64,000 bases of DNA from a virus: the IMG/VR virus record IMGVR_UViG_3300025770_000656, one strand, 5' to 3'. The translations under genes were made by a program, and so were the position numbers. How positions within the stretch are numbered: position 1 is the first letter of the stretch; every line of letters starts with the position of its first letter. Positions 18,215 to 51,835 of this stretch are shown in pieces. The notes beneath the pieces are model-generated. The model searched no databases. It saw only the letters and a program-made list of their open reading frames with translations, and was not told the DNA's origin.

Positions 18215-19231
18215 ATGTACCTAGATGATTTAATCCCAGCCCCAACTAGTAGCAAAGTTGCTACTGTAGCGAACAAAGTTTTTGGCTACACACTAGATTT
18301 GGAGAGCTTGACCCCAGAAAAAGCAAAGAAACTACAAGAATCTTTTACCAATCGCATTTCTCATCTTGATAAAAAGATGGGTACAAAAGCCGCTGGAAAC
18401 AAGATTTACTTGGAAAGTAAGTTATTTTTGGAAGCAATAGACAAGTTTATTGCTGAAAATGAAGTAGATGATGATGCAATGCGTGAGTTAGAATTGTATT
18501 CAGAAAATGATGGCGATCTTTACAGACAGAGTTATGTTCCTATTGCAAAGAACCTAAGCAAGAAGTTTAAGAAGGGTAACTACGACAGTGAGCTAGCCCA
18601 GAAACTTTGGAAGTATCATGCAGACAGGGCCGCACAAAAGTATGGCATGGACCACGCTGGTGGTGCAAAAGATGGACTACGCATGTTTAGTCCTGATACA
18701 CGTAGAGCATTAGCTGCTTCATTAGAAGATGCATGGCACCAAGAAATGCAAGCGGGTAATTTCATGGAATCAAATGTAAATGAAAGTGTTATTACTGAAG
18801 GCGAACTGGAAAATGCAGAACTAGTTTTAGCAGCTAAAGACATGGTAGACAAAATCCAAGGCATGGTTGAAGATCTAGGCGAAATACAAAACGAACAACT
18901 GGGACCACTTACAGATGCAATCCGCGACGAAATGGGTACAGACGTTGCAGACCAATTTAAAGGTGCTATGGAGTCAGTTATTGTAAACGCACTAGAAGGA
19001 ATGAGACAGTCACGTGATGCTGCAGAGCAAAGCAGTAGGATTTTACAAGGCGAGATGCCAGCACCAATGATGGGTGACGAGCCAGCCATGGACGATCCAA
19101 TGAGTCCAGAAGACCCAGCAATGGAACCAACCATGGACATGGACATGGAACAGCCTACTGAAGAGGATTTTGCAGCTGCCGACGCCGCTCAAGCAGGTGA
19201 TGAAGAACTAGGCAGAGAGCGTCGTGAATAG
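18215..19231 (+). CDS. Probable prohead core/scaffold-type protein
   Basis: Acidic helical protein, VITEGELE motif, Met/Pro/Asp-rich tail, late promoter. Confidence 0.5.
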   Translation: MYLDDLIPAPTSSKVATVANKVFGYTLDLESLTPEKAKKLQESFTNRISHLDKKMGTKAAGNKIYLESKLFLEAIDKFIAENEVDDDAMRELELYSENDGDLYRQSYVPIAKNLSKKFKKGNYDSELAQKLWKYHADRAAQKYGMDHAGGAKDGLRMFSPDTRRALAASLEDAWHQEMQAGNFMESNVNESVITEGELENAELVLAAKDMVDKIQGMVEDLGEIQNEQLGPLTDAIRDEMGTDVADQFKGAMESVIVNALEGMRQSRDAAEQSSRILQGEMPAPMMGDEPAMDDPMSPEDPAMEPTMDMDMEQPTEEDFAAADAAQAGDEELGRERRE

Positions 19232-20923
19232 ACTATTTAAAGAATATTTAAAAGAAGCAGACGAAAATCCAGCCAACATTATTTTGAGTGTATCTGAACT
19301 TGTACGCAAAGATGCGGACAGTGAAGATGAAGTTGCTAAAACTAGTATTCCTTATTTTTTAATGTTGTTAAAAAATGCTGGACTTCCAATTAGCTATGCT
19401 GGTTTAAAATCATATTACAATGCTCATCCAGAATTAAAAAATGTTATACAGACATTTAATGACAGTGAAATTGTGTTTGTAGGACAGGGCGATGAAAAAG
19501 ATGGCGAGTCACTGGGCGAGCCACAAGGAGAAGTTCCACCCGAGGAGGTTGTTGATAAAATGGCAAAACGTGCAATGAAAGCTAGAGAACAAGTTGACCT
19601 TGATGAAGCAATGGGCAGTATGAAACCAGAAACAGGTGTTAAAGGCATCATTATAACCAAGTTGGCTATTGATATGTCCCGACAGGGTATGTCTGATGCT
19701 GAAGTTTTTAAACAGATGAAATTACTTCGTAAAAAGAAACTACCAGAACTGAGGAAACTTGCTAAAGAATTACAAATGAAACTATTAAAAAAAGAAGAAG
19801 TTGAACTTGATGAAAAAGCAGACTTGAAAAAACTTGATACAAATCAACTTGAGAAACAGTTAGGATTGTTAAAAATTGGAAAACCAACATCAAGAATGAA
19901 AGATACCGCTAAAAGAATTAGGGATGAACTGAAAAGTCGTGGAATCAAGGCAGAAGAAGTTGACCTTGATGAAGACGAATATGCTGCACTGGACAGTTTT
20001 ACAAATAGCGTAGACTTAACTCCAGAGGAAGAAGCTAAGATAGCCGCAGGTCCAGATGCATACGAAGCTGACGAAAAACTAATGGCAAAGCTAATGGATC
20101 ACTTTAGTGATGGAATGCCTTACGGAATGCAAAAAGGCAGAACAGGCGATCCATACGATTTTATATACCAGGAGTTAGATATGATGGGGTTAATTAAAGA
20201 ATCTGTAGAAGAGGCAGCATTTGGTGGCACAATAGACAAGATGCAACACATTGTGGATAATAAGTCAGCAATGGAAATTGACGGCGTAATGGTGGATACA
20301 TTTACAGCCAGTCTTATTATGGACATCTTCAGCAAAGTAAACAAAGACAACCAGGACAAGATGCGTAAAATGCCAGTGGAAAAATTAGCAAGTGCAGCAT
20401 ACAAGTTGGCTAACCGTTTCAAGGAAGATGTTGAAGAAGGTTATTATGTAATGCCTCCTATAGATAGAGAGCGTTACACAGATTTACCAGGCCTAGAAGG
20501 ACCATTTACAACACGCTCAGGCAAAGTTGTTTACTACGATCCCAAAGAAGGAAAGTATTACGATAGAGATTCAGATATGTATCTGACTTACGATGAGTTT
20601 AAGGCTCATGATCAAAGTAGACCAGATGAGACTGTTAAGAAAGCATCTGACAAGTCAGCCAAATACGGTGGAAGTGGTCCATATGGATCGCACACACTGG
20701 CCGATCAACAAAAAGAAGATAAATTTGATTACTGGCAGTCACCAAATAGCCTAGCTAAACTTGCTGGTATTAAAGAGCGTAGTCTTACAATGGCTGAAAA
20801 AAAAAGATGAAGCATTACGAAAAAAAATTAAGTAAAGCAGACTTTATTGATCGCTACGGTAAAAAAGAAGGCGAAGCCATATACTACGCTACAGCAACTA
20901 AAATGGCAAAGGATAACGCATAA
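19224..20923 (+). CDS. Modular head polyprotein; zero frame stops at 20810, -1 frame continues to 20923
   Basis: Repeated E(E/Q)V(E/D)LDE junctions. A9 tract at 20797-20805. The -1 frame reads KMKHYEKKLSKADFIDRYGKKEGEAIYYATATKMAKDNA and ends in a TAATG overlap with the next gene. Confidence 0.6.
19591..19974 (+). repeat. Direct repeats aagttga(c/a)cttgatgaa encoding V(D/E)LDE
   Basis: Identical 18-mers at 19591-19608 and 19957-19974, a variant at 19798-19814, and another copy at 17137-17152. Confidence 0.8.
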
Positions 20924-49360: not shown

Positions 49361-51480
49361 ATGTTCTTAGGCATTTTAACACTCTTCGTAGCATTGTGTA
49401 TATCAGCAATAGCCGCATATTATAGTATTGTTGGATTAACCGCAATCTTTGCGGCGGCCTTTGTGCCTATTGTTCTAATGGGTGCCGTGCTAGAAATTGG
49501 CAAACTTGTTTCTACAATATGGCTTAAAATATATTGGCAAAGAGCACCAAAACTCCTTCGTAGCTATCTGGTATTAGCAGTCTTTGCACTCATGTTTATA
49601 ACAAGCATGGGTATCTTTGGATTTCTAAGCAAAAGTCATATTGAACAAAGTTCAGTAGGGCAAGAACAACTAGCTCAAGCCACAGTTGTTGACGATAAAA
49701 TAGCTAGAAGTGATGCAAAAGTAAGTCGTTGGAAAAATGAAATAGAACGCCTTAATAAGGGTGAAACCAGTGGACGTATAGATGCGCTTATTAGCCGTGA
49801 ACAAAAACGTATCAGGAATGCTAATTCGAGATTAAAACCTGAAATTGATGCAGAAAATGCTAAAATACCTGGATTAAGAGCACAAGCTCAAGTTGAGGTT
49901 GAACAACAAAATAAACGTTTAAAAGATGCTCAAAAACGCAGTGCAGCTGATATTAAGATAGCAAATGATAAATTAGCACAACTAGACAAAGATGTAGAAG
50001 CCTACACATCAGGTGGTGTTAAAATTGGCACATTTAGTGATACTGACTTGGTTGCTAAGGGTGCAGAATTGCGTAGAACCCAAAAGCCTGAGCGTGATAC
50101 AATACAGGCCCAAATAGCGCAAGCAAAGAAAAATGAAATAGGTGTTGCTAGTAGGGTTCAGCGAGAAATAAGAAAAATTAATAATAAATTAGGTAACCAA
50201 ATTAAGGCTGTTGAAGCTCGCATTGCAAAGATACGTGAGAGTATTGCCCCAACTATTGAGAGTGCAAATGCAAACATTGCAAAATACACAGTAGAGGCTG
50301 GTAGTGCTAATAAAAACGTAGATAGCCGTATATCAGAATTAGAAACAAACATAGAAAATGAAATACCTATTATTGATAAATTACGCGAAGATAGGTTTGT
50401 ATTTGAAAAGAAATATAGACAGTTTGAAGCAGAAGTAGGCCCTGTCAAATATATTGCTGAGCTAATCTATGGTGAAGCTGATAGAACATTGTTAGAAGCG
50501 GCTGTACGTTGGGTAATAATTATAATTGTCGCAGTTTTTGATCCGTTAGCAGTATGTCTTGTATTAGCAGGCACCATGGCAATTAGTTGGTGGCGTAAAG
50601 ATAAAGCAGCTATGAGACCTAAGGGTTTAAAAGCCGCAGAAGAAAGAGTAGAGGAACTCGAAATGGAACTAAAAAAACATAATGAAATCTTAGACGAAAT
50701 TGAAAAACTATTAGATAGTAATCTAGGAAACGTTAACCCTGAGATGTATGCAAAGTTACAGGAAGAACATGCTGCATTGCTAGCAGAACAGGTCGACATG
50801 GAAGCAGCACTTGCTAAGTCCAAGGAAGAAACCGAGTTACTTGTGGACAAGGTAGTACAAACTGAAAGCGAACGTGACGATTATAAAGATCAACTTGATG
50901 CATTAGCCGCCCATATGGGTGAACATACATCAAAGATAGAACAGCTATTAGCTCAAATTGCAGAGTTACAAGCAGAAGTTGAACGTCGTGATGAGATTGT
51001 TGGCCGGATGGCAGAAAAATACCAACTAGTAGAAAAAGATAGCTTTGGTGATGAGTTAGTTGCTGAAGTAGTGCCTGACGCTCCAAGTAATATACCTGTT
51101 GCAGATCCGGAAGTCAGCATTACAGACTTAGCTGAAGATCTAGAAAAAAAGTAACGCAGGCTTCTACGCTACACATTCCTAGTAGGAGCCTGGAAGAAGA
51201 ATACAATATACCAGAGGGTGCTAATGTTAACTTTGGCACATGGTTTCCAACGTCTCCTGACAAAGGTGATTTGTTTATACGTGTAGATGTATTACCAAAC
51301 AAGTTGTTTAGATTTACCAGTGACAAGTGGATTGAGATACCTAAAACTAGAACAAGCAGTTACCTGGGTAACCAAGAATACCTAGATCATCTTATAAGTG
51401 ATGTAAATGCAGGACGCATTAATATAGAACAGTTGACAGAAGATGAACGAGAAGAGATAGCAAGATTATTAGATGACTAA
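49361..51480 (+). CDS. Multi-TM coiled-coil membrane protein; short form ends at 51154, -1 frameshift form ends at 51480
   Basis: Three N-terminal TM helices, long coiled coil, further TM; A_AAA_AAG TAA at 51145-51154; -1 frame open 51151-51480. Confidence 0.75.
51145..51192 (+). promoter_or_regulatory. Programmed -1 ribosomal frameshift signal
   Basis: A_AAA_AAG heptamer, 5-nt spacer, 11-bp stem caggcttctac/gtaggagcctg (one G:U pair), 14-nt loop. Confidence 0.7.
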
Positions 51481-51835
51481 ATTTACAATAGTTACACCAC
51501 CAGACTTTTATTTAATGGATCAGCCTAGTATATTAAGTATTGGATATGAAAGCAATAATCAAGCAGTATGCAACTACATAAAAGATGTTAATTTAGATAT
51601 TACTATATACCTAGCAGGTCCAAACAGTGATTTAAACTGGCTAATTAATGTTTCTAACAACGTTGATTATATATTGTTAAATACAGAAGTAAACCAATTG
51701 GTAACAGGATTATTAATTGACAAACCTAAGACAAACTACTATAATAATATTATAGACTTTGAACTAATTAATAAACAGCAAATTGAAGATCCAGTTGGAT
51801 TTTTAGTAAGTTGGACGAAAGATCTAGAGGAATAA
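51473..51835 (+). CDS. Hypothetical protein
   Basis: Its start overlaps the stop of the -1 frame extension, which supports that extension being coding. Confidence 0.65.
   Translation: MTKFTIVTPPDFYLMDQPSILSIGYESNNQAVCNYIKDVNLDITIYLAGPNSDLNWLINVSNNVDYILLNTEVNQLVTGLLIDKPKTNYYNNIIDFELINKQQIEDPVGFLVSWTKDLEE

What the first reader, a model, noticed from the sequence alone, without database searches (positions are those of the whole stretch)
51145..51480. Textbook programmed -1 frameshift producing two forms of a large membrane protein
Seen: the 597-aa ORF ends ...GAA AAA AAG TAA, i.e. A_AAA_AAG at 51145-51151 directly before the stop. After a 5-nt spacer comes an 11-bp hairpin (51157-51167 with 51182-51192). 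The -1 frame is open for 110 codons (VTQASTLHIP...FGTWFPTSPDKGDLFIRVDVLPNKLFRFTSDKWIEI...) and its stop overlaps the next gene's start. Established: A_AAA_AAG plus a 3' stem-loop is the dnaX/IS-type bacterial frameshift cassette. Inference: a fixed ratio of short and long isoforms of a TM/coiled-coil protein of unknown function, outside the classical tail-chaperone context.
Basis: partly seen in the sequence, partly recalled or inferred. Interest (0 to 1): 0.8.

Follow-up and report, generated by a model that had tools for sequence, protein, structure and literature searches.

The report
Conserved -1 frameshift, phage membrane protein
A membrane protein gene of an abundant uncultured marine phage group ends on a slippery run of A's followed by an RNA hairpin. 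Comparison with about 90 distinct relatives shows that ribosomes very probably slip back one base there and add a conserved 109-residue tail, making this a solid new example of a well-known recoding trick.

Summary
The 597-aa ORF (49361-51154) ends GAA AAA AAG TAA, with A_AAA_AAG in phase at 51145-51151. A 5-nt spacer is followed by an 11-bp hairpin (51157-51167 / 51182-51192, -18.2 kcal/mol). The -1 frame stays open for 109 codons to 51480, overlapping the next gene's ATG.

Comparative evidence strongly supports a real -1 programmed ribosomal frameshift:
- All 46 distinct -1 junctions in related marine phage contigs keep an in-phase A_AAA_AAN heptamer 0-4 codons before the stop.
- Nearly all have a hairpin starting 5-7 nt downstream, and all 9 tested pairs show compensatory changes.
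- 38 of 48 junctions scanned have no start codon ahead of the conserved domain.
- 42 distinct, more distant homologues carry the same C-terminal domain fused in frame, without A-run or hairpin.

The identical 597-aa protein is indexed in 45 blocks of public assemblies, so an assembly error is unlikely. The protein is predicted to have four transmembrane helices, a long extracytoplasmic coiled-coil hairpin and a cytoplasmic coiled-coil tail. The added module starts with one copy of a beta repeat common in phage fibre and virion proteins. Its function is unknown.

This scan had already reported the same frameshift family on other genomes (e1-5379044, e1-5379054). I found no publication on it.

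Verdict: a new member of a known kind.

The parts
49361..51154 (+). ORF1, the zero-frame product of 597 aa. It has three N-terminal TM helices, a ~290-aa coiled-coil hairpin, a fourth TM helix (~383-410) and a ~190-aa coiled-coil/acidic tail.
   Evidence: thousands of homologues of 576-602 aa. AF2 model of the natural in-frame homologue; the TM2-TM3 loop has K+R 4.2 against D+E 0.2.
51145..51151 (+). Slippery heptamer A_AAA_AAG, in phase with ORF1.
   Evidence: An in-phase A_AAA_AAN is kept in all 46 distinct -1 junctions; the last base is A 18, G 15, C 9, T 4.
51152..51154 (+). Zero-frame stop TAA, directly after the heptamer.
   Evidence: In 42 of 46 junctions the stop lies 0-1 codon after the heptamer.
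51157..51192 (+). 3' stimulatory hairpin: arms 51157-51167 and 51182-51192 (11 bp, one G-U), 14-nt loop, 5-nt spacer after the heptamer.
   Evidence: -18.2 kcal/mol, z = -3.3; covariation across 43-44 junctions; the equivalent region of in-frame homologues folds at a median of -4.5 against -13.35 kcal/mol.
51151..51480 (+). -1 frame extension: 109 codons plus TAA. The trans-frame product would be 597 + 109 = 706 aa, with junction ..L-E-K-K/V-T-Q-A..
   Evidence: no ATG/GTG/TTG in this frame before the conserved domain. Gene callers leave the region empty or call only a 69-aa stub.
51229..51477 (+). Conserved C-terminal module: a four-strand beta unit (F-G-T-x-F-P...K-G-D-L-F-x-R-V-D...W) followed by three helices.
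   Evidence: 113 distinct sequences with 8 invariant columns; pLDDT 74 when folded alone; pLDDT 91-96 inside the full-length model; phrog_11591, E 1.8e-6; the beta unit is a repeat found in phage fibre and virion proteins.
51473..51835 (+). Downstream 120-aa gene whose ATG overlaps the stop of the -1 frame. It is a conserved syntenic partner.
   Evidence: the start overlaps the end of the extension in 36 of 38 junction loci. No Pfam or PHROG hit.

Best explanation
This is a -1 programmed ribosomal frameshift site.

Mechanism. Most ribosomes translating the 597-aa membrane protein terminate at TAA 51152. A fraction pause over the hairpin at 51157-51192 while the two tRNA-Lys sit on AAA AAG. They slip back one base on A_AAA_AAG, continue in the -1 frame for 109 codons, and make a 706-aa isoform.

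The two isoforms. Both share four TM helices, a predicted extracytoplasmic coiled-coil hairpin of about 290 aa, and a cytoplasmic coiled-coil tail. Only the long form carries, after a disordered linker, a folded C-terminal module. The first half of that module is one copy of a beta repeat used in phage fibre, collar and virion proteins.

Shown here:
- the sequence anatomy;
- conservation of the heptamer phase;
- covariation in the hairpin;
- purifying selection on the -1 frame;
- the lack of a start codon in that frame;
- natural in-frame fusions in distant relatives.

Inferred, not shown:
- that slippage happens on the ribosome, and at what rate;
- the membrane topology;
- that the module binds or oligomerises something on the cytoplasmic face of the membrane.
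For: Anatomy.

Heptamer: in relatives 60-97% identical, all 46 distinct -1 junctions keep A_AAA_AA(A/G/C/T) in phase, with the zero-frame stop 0-4 codons later. Runs of only six A's, kept in phase, argue for the ribosome over RNA polymerase.

Hairpin:
- Hairpins start 5-7 nt after the heptamer in most junctions, with a median of -13 kcal/mol.
- Stem sequences differ between clades but the pairing is kept. All 9 pairs show double changes, 82.6% of cells are paired against 34-58% for slid controls, and 0 of 500 shuffles reach the covariation score.
- The hairpin lies in a linker that is variable at the protein level and has pLDDT below 50.

-1 frame as coding sequence:
- It encodes a domain conserved at 31-97% identity over 113 distinct sequences.
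- 38 of 48 junctions scanned have no ATG/GTG/TTG before the domain.
- 42 distinct homologues of 478-716 aa, with the same N-terminal TM signature, carry the domain in frame. Their equivalent region folds weakly (median -4.5 kcal/mol, p = 1e-12). Only 2 of 34 have an A6+ run nearby, and the covariance model does not hit them.

Assembly: the same 597-aa product is indexed in 45 blocks of public assemblies.
Against: - No experimental product, reads or transcripts were available, so neither the frameshift itself nor its efficiency is demonstrated.
- A7 could also allow a low level of transcriptional slippage.
- No dnaX-like upstream Shine-Dalgarno stimulator is conserved (10 of 46).
- One relative (L007) lacks the extension altogether, so the long form is dispensable in some lineages.
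- The junction sequences are related, so the shuffle statistics overstate independence. The slid-partner control and the distinct stem sequences in separate clades mitigate this.
Confidence: 0.88

Rival explanations
1. Transcriptional slippage: RNA polymerase stutters on the A7 run, and mRNAs with one extra A place the extension in frame, with no ribosomal event.
For: Related lineages with A9-A10 runs lack a hairpin. Median downstream folding is -3 kcal/mol for A9 runs, against -13 to -15 for A6-A7 runs. This is what slippage-prone runs would predict, so the family may use this route elsewhere. Established knowledge: runs of 9 or more A/T slip efficiently with bacterial RNA polymerase, as in Thermus dnaX and some IS elements.
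Against: In the window's own clade the run is only A6-A8. Its phase relative to the zero frame is strictly kept, which polymerase slippage does not require. A covarying hairpin sits 5-7 nt 3' of the run, the ribosomal geometry; known slippage-stimulating hairpins lie 5' in the nascent RNA.
Confidence: 0.07
2. The extension is a separate small gene with its own initiation or termination-reinitiation, and is not joined to ORF1.
For: Gene callers sometimes call a 69-aa ORF from TTG 51271. Overlapping and coupled genes are common in this genome.
Against: TTG 51271 lies inside the conserved beta unit and would truncate it. 38 of 48 junctions scanned have no ATG/GTG/TTG before the domain. The domain is always C-terminal on a larger protein, and 42 distinct homologues carry it fused in frame to the same membrane protein.
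Confidence: 0.03
3. An artefact or decay: a homopolymer assembly error (true A8) or a recent frameshift mutation creating a pseudogene.
For: Homopolymer runs are error-prone. A few metagenome contigs show odd frames at A10 runs (L118, L125, L126, L159).
Against: The same break with different heptamers, stops and stem sequences recurs in dozens of independent assemblies. The identical ORF1 product is indexed in 45 collection blocks. The downstream frame remains under purifying selection.
Confidence: 0.02

Closest known systems
E. coli dnaX tau/gamma -1 programmed frameshift (A_AAA_AAG plus 3' hairpin)
   Same: The heptamer is identical. A stem-loop sits 5-7 nt downstream. Two isoforms that differ at the C-terminus come from one gene. 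As with dnaX (ribosomal in E. coli, transcriptional slippage on an A-run in Thermus), different lineages of this family seem to reach the same outcome by different routes.
   Different: In dnaX the shifted frame stops almost at once and gives the shorter product. Here the shifted frame gives the longer product with an extra domain. No conserved upstream Shine-Dalgarno-like stimulator was found. The protein is unrelated.
Phage C-terminal extension frameshifts: T7 gene 10A/10B capsid protein and lambda-type tail chaperone G/GT
   Same: A -1 shift near the end of a phage ORF yields a minor, C-terminally extended isoform alongside a major short one. The arrangement is conserved across relatives.
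   Different: Those are capsid proteins or tail-assembly chaperones in structural modules. This is a four-TM coiled-coil membrane protein sitting among dCMP deaminase, bS21, Hsp20 and ClpS genes. The heptamers and stimulators also differ.
IS911/IS3-type orfA-orfB transposase frameshift (A_AAA_AAG with 3' structure)
   Same: Same heptamer class, a 3' structure, and a fusion product (OrfAB) that carries an added functional domain.
   Different: IS elements have long overlaps and often an upstream SD. The protein families are unrelated and there is no mobile-element context here.
Earlier findings of this scan on other genomes (e1-5379044, e1-5379054)
   Same: Same protein family and the same conclusion: a 584/689-aa pair, an A-run plus hairpin, and in-frame fusions in relatives.
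   Different: The genomes are different. This report adds four things: the contrast between A-run length and hairpin strength; the identification of the beta unit as a phage fibre repeat; the overlap with the downstream gene; and a folding control on in-frame homologues.

Membership tests
-1 programmed ribosomal frameshift cassette (bacterial/phage type) | X_XXY_YYZ slippery heptamer in phase with the upstream frame | tested here: met
   A_AAA_AAG at 51145-51151 is in phase. An in-phase A_AAA_AAN is present in all 46 distinct -1 junctions.
-1 programmed ribosomal frameshift cassette (bacterial/phage type) | 3' stimulatory RNA structure about 5-9 nt downstream, maintained by selection | tested here: met
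   An 11-bp hairpin follows a 5-nt spacer, at -18.2 kcal/mol and z = -3.3. Covariation is seen in 9 of 9 pairs, with 82.6% paired against 34-58% for slid controls. The structure is absent from in-frame homologues.
-1 programmed ribosomal frameshift cassette (bacterial/phage type) | The -1 frame encodes conserved protein sequence that cannot be reached by independent initiation | tested here: met
   The domain is conserved over 113 distinct sequences. 38 of 48 junctions scanned have no start codon before it.
-1 programmed ribosomal frameshift cassette (bacterial/phage type) | Both the zero-frame and the trans-frame products are made, in a reproducible ratio | not testable with these tools
dnaX-type cassette specifically | Upstream Shine-Dalgarno-like stimulator about 10 nt 5' of the heptamer | tested here: not met
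   A GGAG/GAGG/AGGA core lies within 20 nt upstream in only 10 of 46 junctions, and there is none in the window.
Pfam DUF4407 (TM / coiled-coil / TM proteins of bacteria and viruses) | Score above the Pfam gathering threshold | tested here: inconclusive
   In-frame homologues score 16-20 bits against a cut-off of 31.3 (E 4e-4 to 8e-3). The window protein gets no hit. The architecture is similar, but membership is unproven.
PHROG 11591 ('virion structural protein') | Match over the whole profile | tested here: not met
   Only profile positions ~398-479 of 497 match the extension (E 1.8e-6). This is a shared C-terminal module and does not establish family membership.

The most novel reading that the evidence does not exclude
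The family may attach one C-terminal module to its membrane protein in three interchangeable ways:
- an in-frame fusion;
- a hairpin-stimulated ribosomal -1 frameshift at A6-A8 heptamers;
- hairpin-less A9-A10 runs that work by transcriptional slippage.

If so, the short/long isoform ratio is a tunable, repeatedly re-evolved trait. The long form would place a fibre-type beta repeat on the cytoplasmic face of the membrane, for example to tether virion parts or to oligomerise the protein. Translation of the overlapping downstream gene would be coupled to the shifted ribosomes.
Probability: 0.3. Interest if true: 0.65.

Novelty: new member of a known kind. Interest (0 to 1): 0.5.

Why it matters
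- Annotation: the gene family is very common in marine and freshwater phage metagenomes (7977 of 8000 scored candidates matched). Its second reading frame is left unannotated or miscalled in public assemblies. The true proteome of an abundant phage group is therefore one domain and one isoform richer than annotated.
- Recoding: it extends conserved phage frameshifting beyond tail chaperones and capsid proteins to an inner-membrane protein.
- Comparative material: it offers natural series of heptamer variants, hairpin variants, long A-runs without hairpins and in-frame fusions. These allow study of how frameshift efficiency is set and how recoding sites are gained and lost.
- Limits: it opens no new mechanism, and the protein's function remains unknown.

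Tried and rejected
Function of the proteins:
- Pfam gives nothing for ORF1 or the extension except sub-threshold Tetraspanin and DUF4407 hits.
- PHROGs give only the partial phrog_11591 match.
- The ESM Atlas returns only viral hypothetical proteins.
- The neighbouring genes are uninformative.

Structure searches:
- The extension model against PDB found nothing convincing by Foldseek or VIA-align. The best Z was 3.9, below the noise level stated by the tool.
- The full-length model against PDB gave only coiled-coil noise.
- BFVD gave an in-frame homologue, plus short (~40 aa) low-rmsd matches to tail fibre and collar proteins.

Phage genome records:
- tblastn of the extension against phage records found no match.
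- DNA search hit only 135 nt of Pelagibacter phage Mosig.
- tblastn of a fused homologue hit only the N-terminal half of 'hypothetical' proteins in jumbo phages.

Other attempts:
- A search for longer proteins containing the extension, by word index, found one.
- The whole-genome search failed because no genome is held for this window.
- A profile scan of the window found no second copy of the extension domain.
- RNAalifold on the raw MAFFT alignment recovered only the 4 outer pairs, because a bulge shifts the register between clades. A hand-specified 9-pair helix was used for the counts.
- The literature searches found no report of this site. That covers only the open-access library.
- An upstream SD-like stimulator was looked for and is not conserved.

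Full report
OBSERVATION

The window carries a 597-aa ORF at 49361..51154 (+). It ends GAT CTA GAA AAA AAG TAA.
- The heptamer A_AAA_AAG occupies 51145-51151, in phase with the ORF. The stop is at 51152-51154.
- After the 5-nt spacer UAACG, CAGGCUUCUAC (51157-51167) pairs with GUAGGAGCCUG (51182-51192). This gives 11 bp with one G-U and a 14-nt loop.
- MFE is -18.2 kcal/mol, and the MFE structure holds 69% of the ensemble. Against 200 dinucleotide shuffles z = -3.3, and none folded as well.
- The -1 frame is closed until 51136, then stays open to TAA 51478-51480. That is 109 codons after the shift.
- The next gene's ATG (51473) overlaps this stop.

A slip on the heptamer would yield 597 + 109 = 706 aa.

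CONTEXT

The window belongs to a large uncultured marine myophage-type genome.
- It encodes ribonucleotide reductase, dCMP deaminase, bS21, Hsp20, ClpS, a tmRNA and several tRNAs.
- The only DNA match among phage records is 135 nt of Pelagibacter phage Mosig, inside a shorter homologue of the same protein.
- bS21 is described as a core gene of pelagimyophages (PMC7029224). That paper does not mention a frameshift.
- No whole genome is held for this window. The host is not established.

IS THE ARRANGEMENT CONSERVED?

ORF1 has thousands of homologues. The best 120 are all 576-602 aa, so they stop at the same place.

In 15 IMG/VR loci found with ORF1:
- 12 have an in-phase A-rich heptamer just before the stop and a ~100-110 codon -1 frame encoding a conserved domain;
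- one (L012) has the domain fused in frame as a 679-aa ORF without any A-run;
- one (L007) lacks the domain;
- one is cut by the contig end.

Searching with the domain alignment brought in 160 more loci. Among them and the window I counted 48 distinct junctions. Two of the 48 (L118 and L125, both A10 runs) have the extension in the +1 frame relative to ORF1. For the other 46:
- the heptamer is always A_AAA_AAN in phase, with last base A 18, G 15, C 9, T 4;
- the zero-frame stop follows after 0-1 codon in 42 and after 3-4 codons in 4.

Six-A runs such as C-AAAAAA-C, kept strictly in phase, are what a ribosomal tandem slip needs. RNA-polymerase stuttering does not need them.

HAIRPIN

Folding the 48 nt after each heptamer gives a hairpin starting 5-7 nt downstream in most junctions, with a median of -13 kcal/mol.

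The stems differ between clades but still pair. Examples are CAGGCUUCUAC/GUAGGAGCCUG, AGGUCUCUG/CAGGGACCU, GGGUACCUAA/UUAGGUGCCC, GGUUCCUGCU/AGCGGGAACC and GAUCCCUAC/GUAGCGGAUC.

I tested a 9-pair helix on the MAFFT alignment of 44 junctions:
- all 9 pairs have changes on both sides;
- 82.6% of cells pair, against 34-58% when the 3' partner is slid by 1-3 columns;
- none of 500 shuffles reaches the observed covariation score.

A covariance-model realignment gives the same picture. The model hits none of the in-frame or extension-less loci that were included as controls.

The hairpin lies in the part of the -1 frame that is variable in sequence and predicted disordered (pLDDT below 50 for residues 1-17). 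Its conservation is therefore at the RNA level.

As a further control, I folded the equivalent region of 34 in-frame homologues. It folds at a median of -4.5 against -13.35 kcal/mol (Mann-Whitney p = 1e-12), and only 2 of the 34 have an A6+ run nearby.

IS THE -1 FRAME A REAL CODING SEQUENCE REACHED ONLY BY SHIFTING?

- The extension is conserved at 31-97% identity over 113 distinct sequences, with 8 invariant and 13 nearly invariant columns.
- In 38 of the 48 junctions no ATG, GTG or TTG exists in that frame before the conserved F-G motif. Only 2 have an ATG.
- In the window the first candidate, TTG 51271, lies inside the conserved beta unit.
- 42 distinct homologues of 478-716 aa share the same N-terminal signature (..L-V-A-L-S-L-S-A-I-A-A-W-Y-S..) and carry the domain in frame at their C-terminus.
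- A profile search of 1.84 billion representatives finds the whole domain only at C-termini.

ORF1 and the extension therefore belong to one polypeptide. The marine clade has replaced the fusion by a regulated break.

ARTEFACT?

The exact 597-aa product is indexed in 45 blocks of public assemblies, and the 24 contigs read carry it. Junctions with different heptamers, stops and stems recur in independent samples. An assembly error or a pseudogene is not tenable.

THE PROTEIN

An AF2 model of the natural in-frame homologue (mean pLDDT 78.6) shows:
- three N-terminal TM helices;
- two very long antiparallel helices (101-218 and 228-358) forming a hairpin;
- a fourth TM helix;
- about 130 aa of further helices;
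- a disordered linker (554-588);
- a confidently folded C-terminal module (pLDDT 91-96).

The TM2-TM3 loop is strongly basic across the family (K+R 4.2 against D+E 0.2). By the positive-inside rule the coiled-coil hairpin is extracytoplasmic, and the C-terminal tail and module are cytoplasmic. This is inference.

Conserved charged and polar residues sit inside the TM helices (E45, K48, D394-P395 in L023 numbering).

There is no Pfam family. Only sub-threshold Tetraspanin and DUF4407 hits appear, and both have the same four-TM, large-loop layout.

The module has four short strands followed by three helices.
- Its beta half (F-P..K-G-D-L-F-x-R-x-D..L-x-R-x-x-G-x-x-W) is one copy of a ~38-aa repeat.
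- That repeat occurs 8-13 times in tandem in 900-1650-aa phage proteins. These hit PHROGs labelled virion structural, tail, tail fibre or adaptor proteins.
- It superposes at about 1 A rmsd over 40 residues on predicted tail collar and tail fibre proteins in BFVD.
- No solved structure gives a convincing match.

The function of both isoforms is unknown. My best guess is that the module is a binding or oligomerisation unit displayed on a fraction of the membrane protein.

MECHANISM AND RIVALS

I put -1 programmed ribosomal frameshifting at about 0.88.
- Transcriptional slippage at this site gets about 0.07, because A7 can slip at low level.
- However, slippage does not explain the conservation of heptamer phase or the position of the 3' hairpin.
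- Independent initiation and artefact get 0.03 and 0.02.

An upstream SD-like stimulator, as in dnaX, is not conserved.

WIDER PATTERN (partly followed up)

- A second, more distant clade breaks the frame at an A9 run (CCUGUAAAAAAAAAG), 18-85 codons before the zero-frame stop and mostly about 70-85, with no hairpin.
- Two other lineages have A9-A10 runs without the usual hairpin. One of them needs a +1 or -2 change.
- Across all junctions, A6-A7 runs go with strong hairpins (median -13 to -15 kcal/mol). A9 runs go with weak ones (median -3; p = 8e-8, though the samples are not phylogenetically independent).
- This suggests that some lineages use transcriptional slippage, as Thermus does for dnaX.
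- In 36 of 38 junction loci the end of the extension overlaps the start of a conserved 120-133-aa downstream gene. That gene may therefore be coupled to shifted ribosomes.

NOVELTY

- The mechanism is textbook.
- The instance is unannotated in public data.
- I found no report of it in the paper library. That search covers only open-access texts.
- This scan had already reported the same family's frameshift on other genomes (e1-5379044 and e1-5379054). My independent tests agree with those reports.

I class it as a new member of a known kind, interest 0.5.

Noticed in passing
L034, L039, L057, L067, L074, L076, L079, L090, L092, L094, L096, L145, L151, L163 (e.g. L057:2117-2132): A more distant clade of the same family breaks the frame at a long A run (A9 in most; mostly within CCTGTAAAAAAAAAG), 18-85 codons (mostly ~70-85) before the zero-frame stop. 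There is no downstream hairpin. Both frames look conserved over the overlap. This is a candidate for transcriptional slippage.
   Followed up: partly
L108/L109 (~638-660); L118 (~690-705); L125/L126 (~688-706): L108 and L109 have A9 runs with no detectable downstream hairpin (dG about -0.5). L118 and L125 have A10 runs whose downstream folds (-10.7 and -7.6 kcal/mol) are no better than shuffled sequence (z about -0.8 to -0.9). In L118, L125 and L126 the extension is in the +1 frame relative to ORF1. This could be slippage that makes both insertions and deletions, or homopolymer assembly errors.
   Followed up: no
L007:4749-5114: One close homologue (585 aa) lacks the extension entirely. The conserved downstream ~120-aa gene starts by an ATGA overlap with the ORF1 stop.
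   Followed up: no
window 51473-51835, and 36 of 38 junction loci: The stop of the -1 extension overlaps the start of a conserved 120-133-aa gene (motif V-V-T-E-P-D-x-Y-F) by 4-41 nt. The gene has no known family. Its translation may be coupled to frameshifted ribosomes.
   Followed up: partly
P0122-P0126, P0143 (proteins): The beta half of the extension is a ~38-aa repeat (F-P..G-D-L-F-Y-R-T-D..L-Y-R-Y-D-G-S-x-W). It is present 8-13 times in tandem in 900-1650-aa phage proteins that hit tail, fibre and virion PHROGs. Two of these proteins have DUF2793 matches with no single stretch reaching significance; one passes the Pfam cut-off (44.7 against 27 bits) and one falls below it (21.5).
   Followed up: partly
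window 20798-20804 (+) and about 58663-58669 (-): Two further in-phase heptamers sit at ORF ends. A_AAA_AAA ends ORF 19224-20810, where the -1 frame is open for 38 codons. A_AAA_AAG lies on the minus strand, where the -1 frame is open for 42 codons. I evaluated neither.
   Followed up: no
46 junction sequences: The zero-frame stop after the heptamer is TAA (29) or TAG (17) and never TGA. By contrast, the -1 frame of many relatives ends in TGA.
   Followed up: no
window 49361-50600 (ORF1 membrane part); alignment A5: Charged and polar residues inside the TM helices are invariant across 47 homologues down to 30% identity: E45 and K48 in TM2, and D394-P395 in TM4. So is the block E-V-G-P-x-K-Y-I-A before TM4. 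This hints at a working membrane machine, not a passive anchor.
   Followed up: no
L001:2781-6610 (Pelagibacter phage Mosig): The short (326-aa) Mosig homologue lies directly after a putative glucosaminidase and 1.7 kb before a GH108 lysozyme gene. This may be a lysis-region context that the window does not share.
   Followed up: no
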